Source of the DNA: a virus
Lineage: Duplodnaviria > Heunggongvirae > Uroviricota > Caudoviricetes
Strand: one strand, 5' to 3'
Length of the DNA stretch: 9,573 nucleotides
IMG/VR virus record: IMGVR_UViG_2617270962_000004
Location: 1 to 9,573 of that record
Shown in pieces: positions 1-8,930 of the stretch. The stretch's first letter is position 1; each line of letters opens with the position of its first letter. The position numbers and the translations under genes were made by a program. The notes under the pieces were generated by a model. It did not search any database. It had not been told where the DNA came from and was given only the letters and a program-made list of their open reading frames with translations.

Positions 1-13
1 GTAATTTCATCAT
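1..13 (-). CDS. 5' end of the next early-operon gene (partial, continues beyond window start)
   Basis: On the minus strand GGGGG lies about 7 nt upstream of an ATG at 13..11 (reads ATG ATG AAA TTA ...), directly after the TGA stop (19..17) of the upstream ORF. Only 4 codons are visible. Confidence 0.25.
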
Positions 14-16
14 GCA

Positions 17-532
17 TCACCCCCTGACTCGCTTTTCAGCAGCATAAAACTCATCAGACAGTATTTCGGTCATTTTCTGTTTTGCGGGTTTTACGCCGCA
101 CTGAAGGTAAATCACATCGTCAACGCAGAACCACTTCACAGGGCCAAACAGGATTGCCGAGAAATCAATACCCAGCCAGAACAACAGCGCATCGGTTCTG
201 GCATACGTGACGGGCGAATATTCACGCCACAGACTGTTCAGTTCATCAGAGGCAACACGCAGGGTTTTAGGGATACGTGATGTGCGCGGTGTGCAGCTCC
301 AGCCATTCGACGCAGTCGGTTTTCGCCATAAGTCGCGATGAAAAGGATATTTGTCCTCCGTAAAACGCAGTCCCTTAAAGCAAAATCCACTGATACCGGA
401 TACAAATACCGACCGGCACGCAACATTCAGCACGGCCTCAAGGCGTTTTGCCTCATCCTTAACTTTCTGGCAGTCCTGCTGGTATTTTTGCCACGCAGCC
501 AGCGCGGAAGGGTTTGATGTTTTAAAGAACAT
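17..532 (-). CDS. hypothetical prophage early-region protein (171 aa)
   Basis: Intact ORF in the same orientation as the early operon. Its ATG (532..530) overlaps the TAA stop of the upstream gene by one base (TAATG), suggesting translational coupling. I recognise no family from the sequence. Confidence 0.6.
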   Translation of the reverse strand: MFFKTSNPSALAAWQKYQQDCQKVKDEAKRLEAVLNVACRSVFVSGISGFCFKGLRFTEDKYPFHRDLWRKPTASNGWSCTPRTSRIPKTLRVASDELNSLWREYSPVTYARTDALLFWLGIDFSAILFGPVKWFCVDDVIYLQCGVKPAKQKMTEILSDEFYAAEKRVRG

Positions 533-1065
533 TACGCCACCTCCGCAGATATCCCGGCAGGCGCTGCTGTCCGGTCAACAATCAGGTAGCGCAGAACATG
601 TTCAGTGATATTCCAGCCGCTTAAACCGCAGATAATGACGCCCAGGCGTATGTCGATATACGCCATCACAAACTGGGGCACGCCTTCTTTCATGGCCTGC
701 TCATCAACTTCAGCCACCACATAAACGGTTTCACAGGTCAGAACGCCCTGAGCAAATTCCCACGCCATCGACGGAATATCATGCCCCTCAATCCATGGCA
801 GGGATTTTCTGAAGCTGCACCACTGAACATCATCAGCCGCAGATTCCTGGCTGCATTTGCGACGAACCGGCTGCACCGGGCGGGGGCGCGGAATATCATA
901 AAAACCGTTACATTCCGTCAGCACGCCTGCATCAACCGCATCACGCAGAAAATAAACCATGGAGGATGGCGGCATATTCATTTTTTCAGCCAGTACACCG
1001 CAGGTCAGGCGGCCATAAATACGCAGCCAGTTTTTAACCCCTTCAAGCACTTTTGCATCAATCAT
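532..1065 (-). CDS. hypothetical prophage early-region protein (177 aa), N-terminal region possibly winged-helix-like
   Basis: ORF with ATG at 1065..1063 preceded by GGGG (rc of 1075-1078). Co-oriented with the early operon; the stop overlaps the next start. The fold suggestion is an impression only. Confidence 0.6.
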   Translation of the reverse strand: MIDAKVLEGVKNWLRIYGRLTCGVLAEKMNMPPSSMVYFLRDAVDAGVLTECNGFYDIPRPRPVQPVRRKCSQESAADDVQWCSFRKSLPWIEGHDIPSMAWEFAQGVLTCETVYVVAEVDEQAMKEGVPQFVMAYIDIRLGVIICGLSGWNITEHVLRYLIVDRTAAPAGISAEVA

Positions 1066-1210
1066 GATTTATTTCCCCACCACATTATTAATGACGATAT
1101 AAACGTATTTCATATTTCTTAACCCTTATTTTCTGTTTTCAGGCGCAAGCAGTCCCCTGACGCGAGCGCCATAATTAAAATGAAGTGATATTTAATTGAT
1201 TAATGCGGTG

Positions 1211-1741
1211 TTATTTATTCAGTCCGGCGTCCTGTTCAAAAGGCTCGACATAAAAACTTTCAGCGCCTTTATTCACCTTGATACCGGCAATGCCTTTCAC
1301 AGCATCCGGCTCCGCCAGGACGGCTTCCTTGTTCACTTCCTCTTTCGTGCGGATGAAACGCTCAAGCCCCATACGGCGCAGCATTTCAATCACACCTTCC
1401 ACATCACGGCTGACGCTGCATGATGGCGTTCCCAGCCGCCATGACACCGTTCCGGTGGTCAGATTGGCTGTTTTGGTTTTGCCGCCGTTCGTCAGCTCAT
1501 CACGGTTGGTTTTGCACCAGTCCTGAATCCCTTTAAAAAGCACTTTGATTTGCTTTTTAAGATTTTCAATCTGCGGCGTATAACGGGCGGTGATTTCTGC
1601 CACTTCGTCATTCATCGCCGTTTCCAGGCGTAGCGCCTCTCGCTGAATATCTCCCAGGGTGCGGATATCACGGCTGACTTCTTCCCGGGTCTGCGGTGCC
1701 GCCTCGGCTGCGGCCTTTAATTTTGTAACGCGTTTAGCCAT
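1211..1741 (-). CDS. gam: Gam-like host-nuclease inhibitor (Mu Gam / Ku-like DNA-end-binding protein)
   Basis: 176-aa translation contains ...NRDELTNGGKTKTANLTTGTVSWRLGTPSCSVS...LGLERFIRTKEEVNKEAVLAEPDAVKGIAGIKV...PFEQDAGL, which matches my recollection of phage Mu Gam (about 174 aa) along its whole length. RBS AAGGA is 8-9 nt upstream of the ATG at 1741. Confidence 0.85.
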   Translation of the reverse strand: MAKRVTKLKAAAEAAPQTREEVSRDIRTLGDIQREALRLETAMNDEVAEITARYTPQIENLKKQIKVLFKGIQDWCKTNRDELTNGGKTKTANLTTGTVSWRLGTPSCSVSRDVEGVIEMLRRMGLERFIRTKEEVNKEAVLAEPDAVKGIAGIKVNKGAESFYVEPFEQDAGLNK

Positions 1742-1752
1742 TTTGTTTTTCC

Positions 1753-2046
1753 TTATTGCAGTGTGCCTGATGCTTTATGCACGCGGTGGCGTTTAATGAT
1801 GGCATCCGCTCCAAAAGACTGTGCAGATGCCTGAAATTCCGCTGAGAGAAACTGAATAATTGCAGGACTGTGATACTGGAGAATACTTGCATAAACGTCA
1901 CAGAGTGACGTCGGCCTGTTATCCGTATCACGTTCTGTTTTCACATCCACTCCAATCTTTTCATGCACTTCAACACAGTCATTGCCTGCCAACTTTTCGT
2001 CATGCGAAACATGATTAAATTCAAAAATAACGCGTACTTTGCTCAT
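1753..2046 (-). CDS. small hypothetical protein (97 aa), member of a duplicated family in the early region
   Basis: The ORF track extends it to 2073, but the internal ATG at 2046..2044 has a good RBS (AGGGG 7 nt upstream) and gives an N-terminus MSKVRVIFEFNH that parallels MSKVVRIIFEYKEH of the adjacent gene. The 3' end lies 12 nt from the gam start. Confidence 0.5.
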   Translation of the reverse strand: MSKVRVIFEFNHVSHDEKLAGNDCVEVHEKIGVDVKTERDTDNRPTSLCDVYASILQYHSPAIIQFLSAEFQASAQSFGADAIIKRHRVHKASGTLQ

Positions 2047-2050
2047 GGAA

Positions 2051-2323
2051 TTACCCCTGTTGATTAAATTCATTACCGTTAATAACCCCGGAAGTCATGC
2101 CTCTGTCTTTCATGAATGCACTGGCTTTCATTGCCACAAACTCTGCGAAGTTTCTGCTTTCTGCCAGCATAACCACCCCAAAAATCATGGCGGGTCCATT
2201 ATCTTTCTTCTTTATTCCGGTTGAACGTATGTCCAGACTTACCCCCATGCGCACTGTTCCATCAGCGTTTTTATGGATAACGTGCTCCTTATATTCGAAA
2301 ATAATGCGTACGACTTTACTCAT
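2051..2323 (-). CDS. small hypothetical protein (90 aa), paralogue of the 1753..2046 product
   Basis: ATG at 2323..2321 overlaps the TGA stop of the upstream gene (ATGA). RBS GAGG/ACGAGGA lies upstream. The N-terminus MSKVVRIIFEYKEH is shared with the neighbouring gene at both protein and nucleotide level. Confidence 0.55.
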   Translation of the reverse strand: MSKVVRIIFEYKEHVIHKNADGTVRMGVSLDIRSTGIKKKDNGPAMIFGVVMLAESRNFAEFVAMKASAFMKDRGMTSGVINGNEFNQQG

Positions 2324-2601
2324 CCTCTGGTCCTCGTTCTGTTTGGATAACTGACCCGGCGTCTAACCTCACGGCAGAACCGAATCATGGCATTAAAGGC
2401 TTCTTCCTCCGTCACCGCTTCCGGTATCCCCGGAACCAGTAACTGCTCCTGTTCATCACGTCCATGACGCGCCATAACCTCAATCACATGCCGTACCGTG
2501 GCAGGCTTTCCGGCAACTATCGGCAATGCACCTTCCGGCAGGACGTAACCAAACTCAATAAGACCACTCGACCACGCCCATGCAATGAGATTTTTTTTCA
2601 C
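2320..2601 (-). CDS. hypothetical prophage early-region protein (93 aa)
   Basis: ORF with GTG start at 2601..2599 preceded by a strong RBS GGGAGGTG. Translationally coupled to the downstream gene through an ATGA overlap. No recognisable motif. Confidence 0.5.
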   Translation of the reverse strand: MKKNLIAWAWSSGLIEFGYVLPEGALPIVAGKPATVRHVIEVMARHGRDEQEQLLVPGIPEAVTEEEAFNAMIRFCREVRRRVSYPNRTRTRG

Positions 2602-2602
2602 C

Positions 2603-2857
2603 TCACACCTCCCAGTAAACCGTGCAGCCGCTGATGCGGGTGGCCTTCACACGGCGGCGCAGGCCGTTGGTCTGTATGGTGATTTCAATTTCACCGGTTC
2701 CCTGCACGTTGCCTACCGGCGGCGTGGTTTTCAGTGCAAAACGTTGCGGATAGCGCTTACTGCGTTCCAGTACCGCACCGGCAAGTTCGGTCAGACGGCG
2801 CGCGCTGTTCAGGGAGTCGAATAAATTCATTTTGTTACCGCAGGATTGCATATTCAT
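2603..2857 (-). CDS. hypothetical prophage early-region protein (84 aa)
   Basis: ATG at 2857..2855 with RBS GAGGTG 5-6 nt upstream. The stop lies 1 nt before the next gene's start codon. No recognisable motif. Confidence 0.5.
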   Translation of the reverse strand: MNMQSCGNKMNLFDSLNSARRLTELAGAVLERSKRYPQRFALKTTPPVGNVQGTGEIEITIQTNGLRRRVKATRISGCTVYWEV

Positions 2858-2869
2858 ATAACACCTCGT

Positions 2870-3091
2870 TTAGCTGATTCGTTTTGCACCGATAAAACGA
2901 CAAATATTGCTGTAAGCTTCTTTCGCACCTTCACGATCAAGTCCGGCAGATATCACCATTCTGGTGCGATCATTAAATTCAAAAAGTAAATCGCCACATT
3001 CTTTATTTTCGGACACGGAGACTGCTTTGACGTTATCGAAATTCACCAGGTGAAAGCGTCCGTAAATATCAGGAATATTAAATGCAATCAT
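2870..3091 (-). CDS. small protein directly downstream of B (73 aa from ATG 3091; 75 aa if GTG 3097), in the position of Mu kil; function unproven
   Basis: ORF overlapping the end of the MuB-like gene. The ATG at 3091..3089 has RBS AGGTG 7 nt upstream. It contains an internal LLFEFNDRT segment resembling the N-termini of the two MSKV proteins. The Kil assignment rests on gene order only. Confidence 0.45.
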   Translation of the reverse strand: MIAFNIPDIYGRFHLVNFDNVKAVSVSENKECGDLLFEFNDRTRMVISAGLDREGAKEAYSNICRFIGAKRIS

Positions 3092-3093
3092 AA

Positions 3094-4026
3094 TCACACC
3101 TGTGAGAGTAATTCAGGGTTGGTATAAACCTCTTTAAAGGCCGCATTAATATGTTTTTCTGTCAGCGCCGCGCCTTCACCACTGGCGGTGATCCATGCCT
3201 GGTTAAGCGTATGTGTCAGAACGCGTAACGCTCCCGGCTTTTCAGCGATAGCCTGCATGACGGCCAGCTCGGCCTCACCACTGATCCCCCACGCCATGGC
3301 AATGGCCAGCACATCCGCCTTTTTGGCCTTGCGAAGTTGTTTTGTACGGGCAAGACGGCTGAACAGGCGCGATAAATCATCAAAGGCGCGGCGTCCACCT
3401 TTAAACAATCCGCGCGGGTTACCAATAAGCACCATCCCGATCCCCGTGGCGTCCTGGATTGCCCGGAGTTGCTCCAGACCGTCAATACCAAGATGATCCG
3501 CCTCATCCACAATCACCAGTCCACGCGTTCCCATCAGGCGACGGCGGATGGCGCGGGATAATGCCCCTTTGTTCGCGCGGGTGTAATCAATCCCCAGCGC
3601 ATCGGCCAGCTCCAGCAGACACTCCGTGACGCTGGAGTGCGCGGGTGACAGGGTGATCATCCAGGTGTTTGGTTGCTCCTGGCAGTAATTACGGGCAGTG
3701 GCCGTTTTACCCACACCCGGTACGCCCACAATAACGTTAATACAGCCCATCAGGCGAACCGCCTGAAACAGTGCGCGCAGCTCCTGGACTGTCTGAGTTT
3801 CCACAAACTGCGGCGGTTCCGGCAGTGCGCTTTGTTTATTCCAGTTCTCATACCAGGAGCGCAGGGAAGCAGCCACAGCAGCGTTATCGCCTTTATATTT
3901 TCCCTTACGGAAAGCCGATAATGTGCCGTCGGAAATCCCCGCCTCTCTGGCGATGGCATACTGCGTCAGTACGCCGCCATCAATAAGTTCATCAATGGTC
4001 TTGATTACATCGTTAATATCGGTCAT
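3094..4026 (-). CDS. B: MuB-like ATP-dependent target DNA activator (AAA+ ATPase)
   Basis: Translation contains a Walker A motif (VGVPGVGKTATARNY) and a Walker B-like motif (LVIVDEADHL). It aligns along its length with my recollection of phage Mu B (for example LPEPPQFVETQTV, KPGALRVL). Size 310-313 aa versus 312 for MuB. I prefer the ATG at 4026 (RBS GAGGTG 8 nt upstream) over the GTG at 4035 used by the ORF track. Confidence 0.9.
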   Translation of the reverse strand: MTDINDVIKTIDELIDGGVLTQYAIAREAGISDGTLSAFRKGKYKGDNAAVAASLRSWYENWNKQSALPEPPQFVETQTVQELRALFQAVRLMGCINVIVGVPGVGKTATARNYCQEQPNTWMITLSPAHSSVTECLLELADALGIDYTRANKGALSRAIRRRLMGTRGLVIVDEADHLGIDGLEQLRAIQDATGIGMVLIGNPRGLFKGGRRAFDDLSRLFSRLARTKQLRKAKKADVLAIAMAWGISGEAELAVMQAIAEKPGALRVLTHTLNQAWITASGEGAALTEKHINAAFKEVYTNPELLSQV

Positions 4027-4108
4027 ATTATTCACCTCGCTTGAGACAGCATTCTCCGAGACTGAAACCTCAAATAACCTGAGTCACCCCTCGGGTTATT
4101 TTTTTATT

Positions 4109-6199
4109 TCAGGCCAGCGGATCACTTTCTTTTAATTTCGCTTCGAGCAGTTGCAATCCCCGCTGGAAATTACGCTCGTATTCTTCATCAGGTTCATCGT
4201 CAGCGACAGGTTGCTGAACGGTCACCGTATTACCCACAGGGCGGTAGATGTTTTCCAGCCAGGGCTCCTGCGGCTTGTGCTCCAGCACGTTGACAACCTC
4301 ATCCTCGGCATCACGGATTTTTTCCTCTGCGCGTTTACGCATACCTTTAAGGCGCTGCTGCTGTTTGTAGTATTCCGCGCTGACAGGGAAGGCTTCGCGT
4401 TTATTGCCGTCCCATACCGCCTCGCAAATCACGCTGCCATCCGGGCGGCGCACGGTAATTCGTTCGGCATCATGAATGTCATAGCTGATAAGTACCTTAC
4501 GGCCATGCTCGTCACGCAGCTCGGGCGCGTAGTAAATATTATTCAGCCAGCGTATTTCACAGCGTCTTACAGGGCGCTCCACCATCGGCCGGAACATATC
4601 CCGCAGTTCAACATCGGACAGCCATTCAATTTCCGTGTCCTCTTCCGCCAGGCGTTTTTTTCTGAACTCCGCCGGGCTGTAATGTTTACCGTTCGGCTTC
4701 ATGGGTAATTCATCGTGCGGCCGGTTGTTGTACCACTCAACACCGTCACGAATGGCATCAATCAGTTCAGACCAGGACGGTAAATCACGCATCGCTGACT
4801 GCTGCCGGGCGTTCAGCCGTTTGCCCTGTTGCAGGGCACTGAATGCCGAGCGTAAATCGCGGTTGGTTTTACGTAACGTCTCGCGATCTGCTCCTTTCCC
4901 GAAATAGGTGCGGTATTTACGGGCTATGCGCATCGGTAATGTGCGGTTAAGCCGTTCGATAATGCCCCGTCCCTGCGGATTACCGGCAATCCCTGTCGGG
5001 TGATTAATCCCCAGTCGTGGCAGTATCCCCACAATCTCCTTATCCAGGACGTCGGCGGTTTCCCCGGAGCCATTATCCGAGTAATACAGAAACGGTTTGC
5101 CATGATGGCGAATACCGTGCTGTATGGCACCGGCTACGGCGAAAACATTTTCAGCCAGGTCAAGGCTCCAGCCCACCACAAAGCGCGTGCCACCGTCGAT
5201 AACAAAGGTCACTTCCGGTGCGAATGGCCGCCCGTGAACCGGGTGCGCGCATTTCAGCTTCATGCCGTGACCGTCACCAATCCAGACATAATTCACCGGC
5301 ATTTTTGACCAGTCGCGGCGCGTGAATCCCTCAAGCTGGCGGTATTCACTGCCAGTTACCCGGCCTTTTTGTTTCACCACTTCCGGCAGTTTCTTCATTG
5401 CGCGGCGAATGGTGTCATAAGAGGGCATGATATCGAGCATATAAGGCTCATCAGCGTGCCGGTGCTGCCATTCAGCAACAAAATCCTCGTAAGCCTCGGT
5501 CATTGGTCGGCCGTTTGACTGGCGATACTGCGCCAGAAATTCGGGCAGCCAGTTAATATCTTCGGCTTTTATTTCCTGGCGTTTACCCGGTGCCAGTAAA
5601 AGCAGGCGTTCAGCGGCGTTCTGTGCCTTGTTAAAGGCCGCAATCCAGCGTTTCAGCGTGATTTCACTCAACGCACGGCTGTTTCCCTTTTTGGCGTTCG
5701 CCGTCTCAACCATTGCCACAATGCGCTCGTCCAGTTGCGAACGTGCCAGGTTGTCAACGATAAACCGGATAGCCTTCGCACAGCTGAAACCAGGTTGTTG
5801 CGCGACTTTCAGAACTTCGCTGACGATCGCGATTCGTGCATCAGCCACCTGGCGCTGGTTTTCAGTCAGGGCATTGAGGCGTTCGAGCATCAGTTGTGGT
5901 GATCCGCGATATGCCTCCACCGCATCAACCACGGCAGATGAGCGTCTGGCCTTTGTCACCACCGGAGCCGGTGATTCATCAGCTTTTTGCGTCATCAGTT
6001 GAAGGGCATAACGTTCACGCAATACTTGTTGCGCGCCAGAAGGCAAACAATCGATATTAAATTCGATTGCTTTTGTCCCCTTACGTTTGCGTAACATGGC
6101 TGCATTTCCCGCAGCTGCTTTTGTGAGTCGATGGCGAATGTTATGTTCCATCATTGGTAAATCAGGAAGACCAACACATTCTTTTGCTGTTACCCACAT
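4109..6199 (-). CDS. A: MuA-like DDE transposase (transposable-phage transposase A)
   Basis: 696-aa ORF. The N-terminus MWVTAKECVGLPDLP...GTKAIEFNIDCLP resembles the MuA N-terminal DNA-binding domain (Mu: MELWVSPKECANLPGLP...GKAIEY). Size (Mu A is 663 aa) and position between ner-like and B-like genes fit. RBS GGGGGA lies 4-5 nt upstream of the ATG. Confidence 0.92.
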   Translation of the reverse strand: MWVTAKECVGLPDLPMMEHNIRHRLTKAAAGNAAMLRKRKGTKAIEFNIDCLPSGAQQVLRERYALQLMTQKADESPAPVVTKARRSSAVVDAVEAYRGSPQLMLERLNALTENQRQVADARIAIVSEVLKVAQQPGFSCAKAIRFIVDNLARSQLDERIVAMVETANAKKGNSRALSEITLKRWIAAFNKAQNAAERLLLLAPGKRQEIKAEDINWLPEFLAQYRQSNGRPMTEAYEDFVAEWQHRHADEPYMLDIMPSYDTIRRAMKKLPEVVKQKGRVTGSEYRQLEGFTRRDWSKMPVNYVWIGDGHGMKLKCAHPVHGRPFAPEVTFVIDGGTRFVVGWSLDLAENVFAVAGAIQHGIRHHGKPFLYYSDNGSGETADVLDKEIVGILPRLGINHPTGIAGNPQGRGIIERLNRTLPMRIARKYRTYFGKGADRETLRKTNRDLRSAFSALQQGKRLNARQQSAMRDLPSWSELIDAIRDGVEWYNNRPHDELPMKPNGKHYSPAEFRKKRLAEEDTEIEWLSDVELRDMFRPMVERPVRRCEIRWLNNIYYAPELRDEHGRKVLISYDIHDAERITVRRPDGSVICEAVWDGNKREAFPVSAEYYKQQQRLKGMRKRAEEKIRDAEDEVVNVLEHKPQEPWLENIYRPVGNTVTVQQPVADDEPDEEYERNFQRGLQLLEAKLKESDPLA

Positions 6200-6209
6200 A
6201 CATCCCCCA

Positions 6210-6476
6210 TCAAGCCACTTCTCTGGCGTCCACCTGGTATCTGCTGGGCCAGATTACAGCAGGTTCAACCCCTATTTTTTCGGCGATGGCGGCTTCGTAT
6301 TTACGGCACTGGCGGTAAAACACATTGCGCATTGATCCGCTTTTTAATCCTAACTCCCTTTCCAGTTCAGGGAGGTCTGTGCCTTTGTTTTCAAGGGCTG
6401 CATATACCGCTTTAGCAGACCAGTCACACCCCTCTCGAACAAACAAATTATTCGATGCTTGTCTGGATACCCTCAT
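6210..6476 (-). CDS. ner: Ner-like DNA-binding regulator (Ner/Nlp family)
   Basis: The C-terminal motif PAVIWPSRYQ matches the conserved end of Mu Ner and E. coli Nlp (PEVIWPSRY). It is the first gene of the early operon, directly upstream of the transposase. Confidence 0.8.
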   Translation of the reverse strand: MRVSRQASNNLFVREGCDWSAKAVYAALENKGTDLPELERELGLKSGSMRNVFYRQCRKYEAAIAEKIGVEPAVIWPSRYQVDAREVA

Positions 6477-6632
6477 TGTGTGATCCTCTCATGTTTACCT
6501 GAACCGATAATCAAAACCGGTTATCGATTTAGGTAAATCATAATCGCAAAATAATTCGATATCAACGGTTTTTTGCGAGCATATCGAAATTAAATGCGAT
6601 GTCGATAATTTCTTTGTTTTATAGGGGGTTAT
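6477..6632. promoter_or_regulatory. divergent promoter/operator region between the ner-like gene and the repressor gene
   Basis: 156-bp AT-rich intergenic region between divergently transcribed genes. It holds at least five copies of the hexamer TCGATA / TATCGA in alternating orientation (about 6505, 6522, 6556, 6582, 6602) and the palindrome AACCGGTT (6515-6522). Exact -35/-10 elements could not be assigned confidently by eye. Confidence 0.6.
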
Positions 6633-7244
6633 ATGGATAAGGCAGAAAAAACCGTATCCAGTGCGGAACGGTTTATTGATATGGAAGGAATAAACCGATT
6701 TTCAGAACGCTTAGCTATGGCTATGGGAAACATGACAAACGTCGAACTGGCGACCCTTTGTGGACTATCTGAAGCCACAGTAAGAAATTACAGGAAGGGG
6801 AAAAACTTCCCTCCTTTGGATAAACTGGCCTTAATAGCTAAAGCCTGTAATTGTTCACTCGACTGGTTGGCCACAGGCAAGAACGAAGATGAATGCGGAA
6901 AAATCGGAAAAAATTGCGATTCAGGTTCGGGTATTGATCAGGCGCTTAGCTCTCTAAGCCCCCAAGAGAAGCAATTAATCCTTACATTCATCAGGCGAGA
7001 AGGTACTAACAACCTTGTCAGGCTGGCAGCAATGAATACATCTACAATCAGCCAGGATGCGGTAGAAAGCATCATTGATGCCTTGCCATTACGTCCCGTA
7101 CTAAAAAATGCAATAAAGATAGGAATGGCGGGAAGTGAAGAAACAGACAAAGAGATTTTGCGCGTTATTGAGAAGTACAACTCGAGCAATAACGCCACCC
7201 AGGAATCAGGGGCAGTGACAGTAAAGAAAAATGTTGTTGGTTAA
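6633..7244 (+). CDS. prophage repressor, HTH XRE (Cro/C1)-type, 203 aa, functional analogue of Mu c
   Basis: Strong RBS AGGGGG 5 nt upstream of the ATG. Residues about 36-80 (NVELATLCGLSEATVRNYRKGKNFPPLDKLALIAKACNCSLDWLATG) form a typical XRE-family helix-turn-helix. It is transcribed divergently from ner/A/B towards the prophage end, as c is in Mu. I see no LexA-like S24 peptidase motif. Confidence 0.75.
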   Translation: MDKAEKTVSSAERFIDMEGINRFSERLAMAMGNMTNVELATLCGLSEATVRNYRKGKNFPPLDKLALIAKACNCSLDWLATGKNEDECGKIGKNCDSGSGIDQALSSLSPQEKQLILTFIRREGTNNLVRLAAMNTSTISQDAVESIIDALPLRPVLKNAIKIGMAGSEETDKEILRVIEKYNSSNNATQESGAVTVKKNVVG

Positions 7245-7416
7245 GCGCCATCGCTATCATGAGGTGGTGCTGTAAATACATATAGAGATCATATGACTCA
7301 TCCCAAGATAATCACGCTATTGAATAGTAATTCATGATGATTATCATACTGATTATAGTTAGATCGATTATGTGAGCATTTTGGCAGTTTGAAGATGTTT
7401 TGAAGAAGATTTTAAG

Positions 7417-7600
7417 GGTAAATTAGCAGTATCAAATGTGCCGCCGTTTTTTGATCTTTTGACTATTTGTTGAGCAGTCGGTATCAAAAAGAGTTTTCCG
7501 TCCGAAGTATACATCACCTGTTTTATTTCAGCATCTTACAGGTGATTTCACCTCCTTTCACTAAAACCCTTGTCGGTATCAAATGATTCACCTGGTTACA
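7417..7600. repeat. prophage terminus (attL-like) with three direct repeats of a putative transposase end-binding motif
   Basis: Direct repeats AGTATCAAATG (7428-7438), GGTATCAAAAA (7480-7490) and GGTATCAAATG (7575-7585). The element ends ...GGTTACA at 7600, so the other strand reads 5'-TGTAACC..., the 5'-TG terminus typical of Mu-like elements. The exact end is uncertain by a few bp. Confidence 0.55.
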
Positions 7601-8930
7601 CCCATGCGTCTTGATCGACAGAAGTTTTATAATGTGCATCGTTATAATCTACGATGCTGTCCGCGCTGTACGCTTTGCTGGCCTGGAAACCATCCGCAAC
7701 AATGACGCCGCCGTTATCAATTTCACAGGTAGTCGGGTTACCGTACTGACTCAATTCCGCAGCGGTAGCTGTACGCTCGAGACGCCATGGGTTATTGGAG
7801 TTTTCAGCGCTGGTACCCCGTGGGCAATCTTTAGACCCAACCCACCAGGCGTTCTTGTAAACATTACCATTGAAAATAACATGGTAAATTTCGCTACCTT
7901 CCTGGCCGCTCCACGCTTGCAATGAGTAATCGTTAACGCTATCCGCTGGTGTTGATGGCTCGCTGTTATCCGGAGTTGGGGTCACCGGTGTTTCCGGAGT
8001 TGGATCAACCGGAGTCACAGCACCGCCATTATTATCCGGCTTAACGGAACAGGAGCCAGGGTTACCATACTGGCTGATTTCTGTTGCCGTTGCCGCGCGA
8101 ACATAACGCCATGGGTTACTGGCATCGTTTTCTTTCGCATCGCCTGGGCAATTTGCCGCGCCTACCCACCAGGCGTTCTTATAAATGCCGCCGTTATAGA
8201 TAACGTACCATGTAGAAGAACCTTCCTGACCTTTCCAGGCTACTACAGCATAGTTGTCGTTTGACTTATCAGCTGGGGCTGGCTGAACATCAGGAGCCGG
8301 TTTAACGTCCGGTGCCGGTTTCACATCCGGTGAAGGCTGTGGTGCTGAAGTACAGGACTGTGGATTACTGGTTTCTGAGATTTCCGTTGCCGTAGCGGCA
8401 CGAACATAACGCCATGGGTTGCTGGCATCATTGCTTTTCGCATCACCCGGACAGTTAGAAGAGGCTACCCACCAGGCATTTTTATATACCGCACCATTAA
8501 AGACGACATACCAGGTCTGACCGCCCTGCTGTTTATTCCAGGCAACTACAGAAGAATTAGACGGAACAGTGCCCTGTGCTGGTGTAGCCGAACCGCCATT
8601 AGCCGGCGTATTGGATGCAGGCGTATTTGAATTTGAAGAAGATGAGCTGCCGCTCTTTTCGCAGGAAAGTGTATTGCCAAACTGACTAATTTCAGCAGCT
8701 GTTGCGGTACGCTTTAAACGCCACGGGTTAGTTGCATCATTTGCTTTCGCTTTTCCCGGGCAATTTGTAGAAGAAACCCACCAGGCATTTTCATAAATTT
8801 TGCCATCGAAAATAACCTGATATTTATTACCACCTTGTTGGTTATTCCATGCTTCCATTGCCAATGCTGGCAGAGCGGAACACACCAGCCCCATACCAAT
8901 CATAGATTTAGTAAATATATTTAATTTCAT
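7596..8930 (-). CDS. chiA: periplasmic endochitinase ChiA, 5' fragment (signal peptide plus four chitin-binding modules, 444 codons), truncated by the prophage insertion
   Basis: N-terminus MKLNIFTKSMIGMGLVCSALPALA is a signal peptide. Four about 65-aa modules repeat with the pattern AW...Y.V.FNG..Y.NAWWV...CPG...NPWR...TA.EIS, separated by S/T/P-rich linkers. RBS AAGGGA precedes the ATG. The last codon (GTG) and the TAA stop are supplied by the prophage end. E. coli ChiA is about 897 aa as I recall, so the catalytic domain is missing here. Confidence 0.85.
   Translation of the reverse strand: MKLNIFTKSMIGMGLVCSALPALAMEAWNNQQGGNKYQVIFDGKIYENAWWVSSTNCPGKAKANDATNPWRLKRTATAAEISQFGNTLSCEKSGSSSSSNSNTPASNTPANGGSATPAQGTVPSNSSVVAWNKQQGGQTWYVVFNGAVYKNAWWVASSNCPGDAKSNDASNPWRYVRAATATEISETSNPQSCTSAPQPSPDVKPAPDVKPAPDVQPAPADKSNDNYAVVAWKGQEGSSTWYVIYNGGIYKNAWWVGAANCPGDAKENDASNPWRYVRAATATEISQYGNPGSCSVKPDNNGGAVTPVDPTPETPVTPTPDNSEPSTPADSVNDYSLQAWSGQEGSEIYHVIFNGNVYKNAWWVGSKDCPRGTSAENSNNPWRLERTATAAELSQYGNPTTCEIDNGGVIVADGFQASKAYSADSIVDYNDAHYKTSVDQDAWV
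8277..8330 (-). repeat. in-frame 18-bp tandem repeat (3 units) encoding the linker PDVKPA PDVKPA PDVQPA within chiA
   Basis: Minus-strand units CCGGATGTGAAACCGGCA / CCGGACGTTAAACCGGCT / CCTGATGTTCAGCCAGCC, read directly from the sequence. Confidence 0.5.

What the first reader, a model, noticed from the sequence alone, without database searches (positions are those of the whole stretch)
17..1065. Two larger unknown genes distal to gam in the early operon
The 177-aa and 171-aa products (stop/start overlap TAATG) sit where Mu-like phages carry late-early accessory functions. I recognise neither family. The first has an N-terminal segment (LRIYGRLTCGVLAEKMNMPPSSMVYFLRDAVDAGVL) that looks winged-helix-like, suggesting a DNA-binding or regulatory role.
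Basis: inference. Interest (0 to 1): 0.35.

Follow-up and report, generated by a model that had tools for sequence, protein, structure and literature searches.

The report
Phage Mu genes 11 and 12
The two unrecognised genes are this E. coli Mu-like prophage's copies of phage Mu early genes 11 and 12: real, conserved genes that already have catalogue families, but whose function nobody has worked out.

Summary
Two minus-strand ORFs (532-1065, 177 aa; 17-532, 171 aa) follow gam and share a TAATG stop/start overlap.

They are not orphans.
- The first is the homologue of phage Mu gp11: 69% identity over its full length, and Pfam PF25754 Gp11_C at 139 bits.
- The second is the homologue of Mu gp12 (old name E13): 54% identity, and PHROG 2314. 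NCBI's genome annotation pipeline (PGAP) names it 'Mu-Gp12 family protein'.
- Gene order and the one-base overlap match Mu.
- Both are under purifying selection (dN/dS about 0.09 and 0.16).
- Near-identical copies occur in 232 of 5426 complete E. coli genomes.

The model has three helices plus a wing. All local Foldseek hits are winged-helix regulators. A relative passes the Pfam HTH_24 threshold. DNA binding is unproven, and the domain is near neutral in charge.

gp12 gives a confident model (pLDDT 90.6) with no PDB match. It resembles only uncharacterised proteins of diverse phages.

The two genes are not an obligate pair. 23 of 80 related prophages carry other genes after gene 11, and gp12 homologues occur without gp11.

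Most likely both are dispensable early accessory proteins. Ordinary finding, function open.

The parts
532..1065 (-). Gene 11 homologue (177 aa): winged-helix N-domain, disordered linker, Gp11_C domain
   Evidence: ORF. 68.9% identity to Mu gp11 over 177 aa, E 4e-70. phrog_1949 at E 2e-106. dN/dS 0.09.
892..1065 (-). gp11 residues 1-58: predicted winged helix-turn-helix domain
   Evidence: AlphaFold2 helices 4-17, 22-28 and 33-45, followed by the conserved NGFY wing. Foldseek local hits to winged-helix regulators. hhalign aligns residues 3-50 with the E. coli Lrp HTH residues 15-58.
802..891 (-). gp11 residues 59-88: variable, Pro/Arg-rich, basic linker, predicted disordered
   Evidence: pLDDT below 50 for residues 51-88. 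These columns are the variable ones in alignment A3. Net charge +3.9.
565..798 (-). gp11 residues 90-167: Gp11_C domain (Pfam PF25754)
   Evidence: 139.2 bits against a cutoff of 27, E 5.8e-41. The model shows strand-helix-strand-strand-(short helix)-strand at pLDDT 75-87. The domain also occurs alone or with other N-termini in relatives.
17..532 (-). Gene 12 homologue (171 aa), Mu-Gp12 family
   Evidence: 54.4% identity to Mu gp12 over 169 aa, E 1e-55. phrog_2314 at E 1.1e-84. Relatives 94% identical carry PF26885. PGAP name 'Mu-Gp12 family protein' in a 99.9% identical locus. AlphaFold2 pLDDT 90.6. dN/dS 0.16.
530..534 (-). TAATG stop/start overlap (translational coupling signal)
   Evidence: Read directly from the sequence. 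Mu has the same one-base overlap, with both genes touching position 6954.
538..544 (-). Shine-Dalgarno GGAGGTG for gene 12, inside the end of gene 11
   Evidence: Read directly from the sequence.
1211..1741 (-). gam (context: the gene immediately upstream)
   Evidence: Pfam Phage_Mu_Gam E 5.5e-42 and phrog_491.
1066..1210 (-). 145-nt gam-gene 11 spacer, holding a hairpin (1142-1170) conserved with Mu
   Evidence: Alignment with the Mu spacer. RNA fold z-score -1.65, which is marginal.

Best explanation
Identity (shown). These are the orthologues of phage Mu early genes 11 and 12, in the semi-essential early region of a Mu-like prophage of E. coli.

Expression (inferred from Mu's organisation). 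They are transcribed on the long early transcript after A, B, kil and gam, and are translationally coupled through a TAATG overlap.

gp11-like protein (structure predicted).
- An N-terminal winged-helix domain is joined by a disordered, basic Pro/Arg-rich linker to a small alpha/beta Gp11_C domain.
- Gp11_C is the constant core of the family. In relatives it stands alone, or sits behind one or two winged helices, or behind an Ead/Ea22-like coiled coil.
- Most likely mechanism (inferred): Gp11_C is the working head that binds a partner or self-associates. The winged helix tethers it to DNA or to a DNA-associated factor. The protein would then be a dispensable modulator of early Mu development, acting on replicative transposition, early gene control or host physiology.

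gp12-like protein (structure predicted).
- It is a separately mobile, single-domain alpha/beta protein of a phage-specific fold.
- It is found in early or DNA-metabolism modules of unrelated temperate and lytic phages.
- Most likely mechanism (inferred): it acts on a conserved host factor, as host takeover or counter-defence, rather than in Mu-specific chemistry.

The two are neighbours, not an obligate pair.
For: Identity:
- tblastn gives 68.9% identity to Mu gp11 and 54.4% to Mu gp12 over the full length.
- Pfam Gp11_C at 139 bits. PHROGs 1949 and 2314. PF26885 on close relatives, and the PGAP name 'Mu-Gp12 family protein'.
- Same order and overlap as Mu.
- Purifying selection.

gp11 architecture:
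- AlphaFold2 model.
- Foldseek hits are all winged-helix regulators.
- HTH-only weak Pfam hits across the N-domain alignment.
- hhalign puts the N-domain in register with the Lrp HTH.
- Relatives have HTH_24 + Gp11_C, double HTH + Gp11_C, Ead/Ea22-like + Gp11_C, or Gp11_C alone.
- A double-winged-helix Gp11_C protein occupies the same gam-to-gemA slot in a distant Mu-like prophage.

gp12:
- Model pLDDT 90.6 and pTM 0.81.
- No PDB fold match: best E 0.26, TM at most 0.20.
- BFVD matches only to uncharacterised phage proteins, including Gordonia and Mycobacterium phages.
- Homologues in Klebsiella and Pseudomonas Mu-like phages and in lytic Klebsiella and Vibrio phages, near helicase, dUTPase and ligase genes.

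Independence of the two genes:
- 57 of 80 gp11 loci have gp12 directly downstream. 23 of 80 carry unrelated small genes instead.

Dispensability:
- The semi-essential region is described as non-essential, with largely unknown functions, some of them harmful to the host (PMC3820752; PMC3325207; PMC8705779).
Against: - No functional data exist for either protein. Literature searches found none.
- The winged-helix call rests on a moderate-confidence model (mean pLDDT 63.6) and on Foldseek hits that are all above E 0.04.
- The N-domain is near neutral or acidic (net -1.5; family median -0.4), which is unusual for a DNA-binding winged helix.
- gp12 shows no conserved charge or recognisable catalytic motif, so 'acts on a host factor' rests only on its distribution.
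- No PADLOC or other annotated-family hit for either protein.
Confidence: 0.55

Rival explanations
1. gp11 is a conventional sequence-specific transcription factor of the Lrp/AsnC kind. A winged helix binds operators and a small RAM-like C-domain drives oligomerisation or ligand sensing. It would regulate phage or host promoters during the early phase.
For: - Top Foldseek hits over the whole model are Lrp/AsnC-family regulators (E 0.04-0.3, 167-202 aligned columns).
- The C-domain has a strand-helix-strand-strand-(helix)-strand order compatible with a small ferredoxin-like domain.
- hhalign puts the N-domain in register with the Lrp HTH.
Against: - No Pfam AsnC_trans_reg hit at E <= 1.
- hhalign aligns only the N-domain.
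- Foldseek TM-scores are 0.25-0.30 with RMSD 9-14 A, and no hit reaches E <= 1e-3.
- The N-domain is not basic.
- Gp11_C also occurs alone or on coiled-coil N-termini, which does not fit a ligand-sensing domain of a DNA-binding regulator.
Confidence: 0.15
2. gp11 and gp12 form one two-component unit, for example a regulator plus effector or an inhibitor plus partner, that works only as a complex.
For: - TAATG stop/start overlap with a Shine-Dalgarno sequence inside gene 11.
- The same overlap is conserved in Mu.
- The two genes are adjacent in 57 of 80 related loci.
- In this prophage gp11 is acidic overall (pI 5.1) and gp12 basic (pI 9.3).
Against: - 23 of 80 gp11 loci lack any gp12 homologue within about 6 kb and carry other genes there.
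- gp12 homologues occur in phages with no Gp11_C protein.
- A distant Gp11_C prophage locus has no gp12.
- The charge complementarity is not conserved across the families.
Confidence: 0.12
3. One or both genes encode the classically mapped but never assigned Mu semi-essential functions: arm (amplified replication of Mu) or cim (control of immunity).
For: - These functions are listed for the 4.3-10 kb semi-essential region of Mu (PMC4553209).
- gp11 and gp12 are the two largest unassigned ORFs between gam and gemA.
- From memory only, unverified: arm was mapped to the interval just right of gam.
Against: - No source held here gives map coordinates that tie arm or cim to these ORFs.
- The gp12 family occurs in non-transposable lytic phages, which argues against a role specific to Mu replication or immunity.
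Confidence: 0.15
4. The ORFs are decaying or non-functional prophage remnants.
For: Prophage accessory regions often decay. Truncated and frameshifted copies exist in databases (for example P0195, P0198 and P0204; P0148 and P0161-P0166).
Against: - Both ORFs are intact and full-length relative to Mu.
- dN/dS is 0.09 and 0.16, comparable with gam at 0.08.
- Both have good ribosome-binding sites.
- The genes are conserved in the functional phages Mu, D108 and SfMu and in Yersinia Mu-like phages.
Confidence: 0.03

Closest known systems
Phage Mu gp11 (Mup11, formerly E10-E12; Pfam PF25754 Gp11_C; PHROG 1949)
   Same: Full-length collinear homologue: 68.9% identity over 177 aa against Mu's 176 aa. 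Same position directly after gam. Same one-base overlap with the next gene. Same three-part layout of winged helix, variable linker and Gp11_C.
   Different: About 31% of residues differ, mostly in the linker (residues 59-88) and the C-terminal tail. The gam-gene 11 spacer is about 47 nt longer here and contains a 14-codon mini-ORF that Mu lacks. Function is unknown in Mu as well.
Phage Mu gp12 (Mup12, formerly E13; Pfam PF26885 / 'Mu-Gp12 family'; PHROG 2314)
   Same: Full-length homologue (54.4% identity over 169 aa) in the same slot after gene 11. The invariant residues K4, F52, W69, L98, Y142, E156 and I157 are kept across the family.
   Different: More diverged from Mu than gene 11 is. 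The downstream neighbour differs: a SANT/Myb-like protein here, against gp13/gp14 in Mu. Function is unknown in Mu as well.
Lrp/AsnC (feast/famine) regulators
   Same: Overall layout of an N-terminal winged helix, a linker and a small alpha/beta C-domain. These are the best whole-model Foldseek hits. The HTH register aligns with E. coli Lrp.
   Different: No sequence or profile signal for the RAM domain. Low TM-scores. A long disordered linker. The N-domain is not basic. Not a member.
Lambda Ea22 / P22 Ead early proteins (exo-xis region)
   Same: They are early, dispensable, modular phage proteins, built from an N-terminal oligomerising coiled coil and an interchangeable C-terminal domain. Some Gp11_C relatives (P0208, P0211) carry an Ead/Ea22-like N-terminus. 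Lambda Ea22 is pro-lysogenic with an unknown host partner (PMC10834534).
   Different: The window protein has a winged helix, not a coiled coil. The Gp11_C profile finds no solved structure, so it does not match the lambda Ea22 C-terminal domain, which is in the PDB. This is an analogy, not membership.

Membership tests
Mu gp11 family (Pfam PF25754 Gp11_C / PHROG 1949) | Gp11_C domain match above the Pfam gathering score | tested here: met
   139.2 bits against a cutoff of 27, E 5.8e-41. Residues 90-167 cover profile positions 1-78 of 78.
Mu gp11 family (Pfam PF25754 Gp11_C / PHROG 1949) | Full-length collinear similarity to Mu gp11, including the N-terminal domain | tested here: met
   68.9% identity over residues 1-177, E 4e-70. 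phrog_1949 covers residues 1-176, E 2e-106.
Mu gp11 family (Pfam PF25754 Gp11_C / PHROG 1949) | Position in the early operon directly downstream of gam | tested here: met
   Window order is gam 1211-1741, then 532-1065. Mu order is gam 5801-6325, then gp11 6424-6954.
Mu-Gp12 family (Pfam PF26885 / PHROG 2314) | Full-length similarity to Mu gp12 and a match to the family profile | tested here: met
   54.4% identity over residues 1-169, E 1e-55. phrog_2314 at E 1.1e-84 over residues 1-170.
Mu-Gp12 family (Pfam PF26885 / PHROG 2314) | Direct match of this protein to the PF26885 HMM above threshold | tested here: inconclusive
   The local Pfam copy returned nothing for this protein, apparently because it lacks PF26885. 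Cluster representatives 94% identical carry precomputed PF26885. PGAP names the protein 'Mu-Gp12 family protein' in a locus matching window 1-1250 at 99.9% nucleotide identity. The evidence is indirect but strong.
Winged helix-turn-helix DNA-binding domains (gp11 N-terminus) | Three-helix bundle followed by a beta-hairpin wing | tested here: met
   AlphaFold2 gives H4-17, H22-28 and H33-45, then the conserved NGFY turn, at pLDDT 65-81. Local Foldseek superpositions on MarR, MntR, DeoR, ArsR and Zalpha have RMSD 1.1-2.6 A over 39-54 columns and probability 0.75-0.97, but all have E >= 0.04.
Winged helix-turn-helix DNA-binding domains (gp11 N-terminus) | Profile match to a curated HTH or winged-helix family above threshold | tested here: not met
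   The window protein's best hit is HTH_10 at E 0.066 and 13.5 bits, against a cutoff of 23.1. A relative, P0203, does pass HTH_24 with 22.6 bits against 21.9.
Winged helix-turn-helix DNA-binding domains (gp11 N-terminus) | Actual DNA binding | not testable with these tools
   Only indirect evidence is available. The domain has net charge -1.5 (family median -0.4), which does not favour DNA binding.
Lrp/AsnC regulators | C-terminal RAM / AsnC_trans_reg domain | tested here: not met
   No Pfam hit at E <= 1. hhalign against E. coli Lrp aligns only the HTH. Foldseek whole-chain hits have E 0.04-0.3 and TM 0.25-0.30.
Known anti-phage defence proteins (PADLOC) | Match to any PADLOC model | tested here: not met
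   No families at E <= 1 for either protein.

The most novel reading that the evidence does not exclude
The Mu-Gp12 family has a confidently predicted alpha/beta fold with no Foldseek match in the PDB. It is scattered through the early regions of unrelated temperate and lytic phages, from Enterobacterales to actinophages. It could be a new class of host-takeover or counter-defence protein. Gp11_C could be an interchangeable effector head, delivered on either a winged helix or an Ea22-like coiled coil, that steers the lysis-lysogeny or replication decision. If so, it might be the missing gene behind Mu's old 'arm' or 'cim' phenotypes.
Probability: 0.2. Interest if true: 0.55.

Novelty: already known. 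Interest (0 to 1): 0.2.

Why it matters
As an annotation matter it is routine. The genes should be labelled 'Mu gp11 family (winged helix + Gp11_C)' and 'Mu-Gp12 family', not 'unknown'.

The wider point is modest. Forty years after the semi-essential region of Mu was mapped, its two largest post-gam genes still have no function.

This analysis adds three testable facts:
- Gene 11 is a modular protein whose conserved core is the C-domain, with a winged-helix tether.
- Gene 12 has a confident phage-specific fold with no solved relative, and it moves independently among very different phages.
- The gene 12 slot is swapped for other small genes in about a quarter of related prophages, which is typical of host-interaction or counter-defence loci.

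These facts make both genes reasonable candidates for deletion and defence-panel screens, but nothing here is surprising to a Mu specialist.

Tried and rejected
- NCBIfam and PADLOC scans gave no meaningful hits for either protein.
- Sequence and profile searches of the PDB found nothing significant. These covered full gp11, gp12, the Gp11_C profile, the gp12 profile and the N-domain profile. Only weak hits to MntR, AdcR and CodY HTH regions appeared.
- Foldseek of gp12 against the PDB found no fold match.
- I tested whether the gp11 winged helix is related to the MuA I-alpha domain or to this prophage's repressor, which would have linked it to operator/enhancer binding and 'cim'. hhalign found nothing. 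Rejected.
- I tested whether gp11 is an Lrp/AsnC member. Only the HTH aligns. Rejected as membership and kept as an architectural analogy.
- I tested whether gp11 and gp12 are an obligate pair. Co-occurrence counts reject this.
- Per-member Pfam scans of 47 gp12 relatives gave only scattered coiled-coil noise on the long N-terminal helix.
- Conserved charge, as a clue to nucleic-acid binding or DNA mimicry, is not conserved in either family.
- Literature searches for functional data on Mu gp11/gp12, Mup11/12, the PF25754/PF26885 accessions, or anti-defence roles of the semi-essential region found nothing specific. The Mu genome paper is not held.
- The search for related loci failed with the broad gp12 and Gp11_C alignments because they lack a conserved stretch to search with.
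- A genome-contig scan with the Ea22-type Gp11_C group found no relative.
- The RNA fold of the conserved spacer hairpin is only marginal, z -1.65.

Full report
**What is in the window.** The window holds the left (early) end of a Mu-like prophage on the minus strand. It also holds flanking E. coli chromosome.
- The ORF list and family scans give the prophage genes in order.
  - A repressor lies at 6633-7244 on the plus strand.
  - On the minus strand follow ner (6210-6476), the MuA transposase (4109-6199) and MuB (3094-4035).
  - Next come five small early ORFs (1753-3097).
  - Then comes gam (1211-1741; Pfam Phage_Mu_Gam E 5.5e-42).
  - Last are the two ORFs of the finding.
- From base 7601 rightwards the sequence is E. 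coli chiA and tuf, at 100% identity to many genomes.

**Check of the observation.**
- ORF 532-1065 (-) encodes 177 aa and ORF 17-532 (-) encodes 171 aa.
- On the coding strand the first gene's TAA and the second gene's ATG share base 532, giving TAATG.
- GGAGGTG lies 5 nt upstream of that ATG.
- The genes are real.
  - Median dN/dS against close relatives is 0.09 and 0.16. gam scores 0.08 in the same comparison.
  - Hundreds of homologues exist.

**Identity.**
- The first product is 68.9% identical over its whole length to phage Mu gp11.
  - It matches Pfam PF25754 'Phage Mu Gp11 C-terminal domain' at 139 bits, against a cutoff of 27.
  - It matches phrog_1949 end to end.
- The second product is 54.4% identical over 169 residues to Mu gp12, formerly E13.
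  - It matches phrog_2314 at E 1.1e-84.
  - Its 94%-identical cluster representatives carry Pfam PF26885.
  - NCBI's genome annotation pipeline (PGAP) names the protein 'Mu-Gp12 family protein' in a 99.9% identical E. coli locus.
- In Mu the order is gam (5801-6325), gp11 (6424-6954), gp12 (6954-7484), with the same one-base overlap.
- Near-identical DNA for window 1-1250 occurs in 232 of 5426 complete E. coli genomes.
- Both Mu proteins are themselves annotated as hypothetical. The papers I could reach describe the semi-essential region's ORFs as largely uncharacterised (PMC3820752; PMC3325207; PMC8705779).

**The gp11-like protein.** An AlphaFold2 model built on 28 sequences has moderate confidence (mean pLDDT 63.6) and three parts.
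- Residues 1-50 form three helices (4-17, 22-28, 33-45) at pLDDT 65-81.
- Residues 51-88 are below pLDDT 50. Residues 59-88 are the variable, Pro/Arg-rich, basic stretch in the alignment.
- Residues 90-166 form a small strand-helix-strand-strand-(helix)-strand domain at pLDDT 75-87.

*Is the N-domain a winged helix?* The fold evidence says yes, weakly.
- Foldseek against the PDB gave no hit at E <= 1e-3.
- Nearly all top hits are winged-helix regulators.
  - Whole-chain hits are Lrp/AsnC proteins, E 0.04-0.3.
  - Local hits are MarR, MntR, DeoR, ArsR and Zalpha domains. RMSD is 1-2.5 A over 40-54 columns and probability 0.8-0.97.
- An alignment of diverse N-domains keeps T21, L40, R41, V44 and the N53-G54-x-Y56 wing turn.
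- Members scanned one by one hit only HTH or winged-helix Pfam families, all weakly.
- hhalign places residues 3-50 in register with the HTH of E. coli Lrp.
- The winged-helix fold is therefore reasonably supported.
- DNA binding is not shown. The domain is slightly acidic here (net -1.5) and near neutral across the family.

*The wider Gp11_C family.* An exhaustive profile search of 1.8 billion representative proteins found only 48 clusters at E <= 1e-3.
- The constant element in them is Gp11_C.
- It occurs alone, in proteins of 81-96 aa.
- It occurs behind one winged helix. P0203 passes the HTH_24 gathering score.
- It occurs behind two winged helices (P0199, P0200).
- It occurs behind an Ead/Ea22-like coiled coil (P0208, P0211).
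- It also occurs behind other N-termini.
- The double-winged-helix form sits between gam and gemA in another Mu-like prophage that has no gp12.
- I read this as follows: Gp11_C is the working head, and the N-terminal module is a tether or oligomeriser. This is inference.
- Lambda Ea22 is a useful analogy. It is an early, dispensable, pro-lysogenic protein with a coiled coil, an interchangeable C-terminal domain and an unknown host partner (PMC10834534). It is not a relative of this protein. The Gp11_C profile finds no solved structure.

**The gp12-like protein.**
- With a 47-sequence alignment that includes distant relatives, AlphaFold2 gives a confident single-domain alpha/beta model (pLDDT 90.6, pTM 0.81).
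- Foldseek finds no PDB counterpart: best E 0.26, TM at most 0.20.
- In the viral predicted-structure library there are five hits at E <= 1e-3. All are uncharacterised, and they include proteins of Gordonia and Mycobacterium phages.
- Sequence homologues lie in two settings.
  - One is the early regions of Klebsiella and Pseudomonas Mu-like phages.
  - The other is lytic Klebsiella (Lastavirus) and Vibrio phages, close to helicase, dUTPase and ligase genes.
- Invariant residues are K4, F52, W69, L98, Y142, E156 and I157. They do not spell a motif I can name.
- Charge is not conserved, and no Pfam family recurs among members.

**Are the two genes a unit?**
- The overlap suggests translational coupling.
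- But 23 of 80 IMG/VR loci with a gp11 homologue have no gp12 homologue within about 6 kb. They carry unrelated genes after a short gap, mostly of 100-130 codons.
- gp12 homologues also occur where no Gp11_C protein exists.
- They are neighbours in one lineage, not an obligate pair.

**Most likely mechanism, and how sure I am.**
- Identity and operon position are shown (confidence above 0.95).
- The domain architecture is predicted, at moderate confidence for gp11 and high confidence for gp12.
- Function is inferred.
  - gp11 is probably a dispensable early modulator. Its Gp11_C head binds a partner or self-associates, and its winged helix tethers it to DNA or to a DNA-bound factor.
  - gp12 is probably an independently mobile accessory protein that acts on a conserved host factor.
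- The patchy, swappable distribution and the early expression are what point towards host interaction or counter-defence. There is no direct evidence.
- Rivals, scored in the rival section:
  - gp11 as an Lrp-like regulator;
  - an obligate gp11-gp12 complex;
  - identity with the old 'arm' or 'cim' functions, which I could not verify from any held source;
  - gene decay, which dN/dS contradicts.

**Verdict.** This is an ordinary finding, correctly observed. The genes belong to catalogued families (Mu gp11 and Mu gp12) whose function remains open. The winged-helix guess is supported at the level of fold only. Novelty: already known. Interest: about 0.2.

Noticed in passing
window 7590-7610 (junction at about 7600/7601); chiA fragment 7596-8930 (-): The Mu-like prophage is inserted inside the E. 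coli chiA gene (bifunctional chitinase/lysozyme), next to tuf. Host DNA matches other E. coli genomes at 100% from base 7601 onward. chiA is cut to a 444-codon ORF that ends in a few phage-derived codons.
   Followed up: partly
window 1142-1170 (-), in the gam-gene 11 spacer 1066-1210: A GGCGC...GCGCC hairpin and the flanking TTTAATTATGGCGC / GCGCCTGAAA sequence are conserved between this prophage and phage Mu in an otherwise tightly packed operon. The RNA fold is only marginally better than shuffles (z -1.65). It could be a processing, attenuation or protein-binding site.
   Followed up: partly
window 1069-1113 (-): A 14-codon mini-ORF (MKYVYIVINNVVGK) ends 3 nt before the gene 11 start codon. 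The segment is absent from the Mu spacer, so it is probably not conserved. Coding status was not tested.
   Followed up: no
window 1-13 (-), runs off the window; equivalent to L008 8462-9013: The gene after gp12 starts 3 nt after the gp12 stop codon. In the 99.9% identical E. coli locus it is a 183-aa 'SANT/Myb-like DNA-binding domain-containing protein'. Mu has gp13 and gp14 at this position, so the region right of gene 12 is mosaic.
   Followed up: no
L048-L057, L059-L066, L080, L082, L086-L088 (downstream of the gp11 homologue): In 23 of 80 related prophages the gene 12 slot is occupied by unrelated genes, mostly of 100-130 codons and of several different families, after a gap of roughly 110-170 nt in most of them. 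This is a variable accessory slot typical of host-interaction loci.
   Followed up: partly
P0208, P0211 (from the representative search); L090 5554-6261: The Gp11_C domain is also found fused to Ead/Ea22-like coiled-coil N-termini, and to a tandem pair of winged helices in another Mu-like prophage. This suggests it is an interchangeable C-terminal module of early phage proteins.
   Followed up: partly
window 6633-7244 (+): The prophage repressor gene has clearly lower GC content (0.436; GC3 0.426) than the early operon genes (0.50-0.55). This is consistent with a swapped immunity module. Its family was not examined.
   Followed up: no
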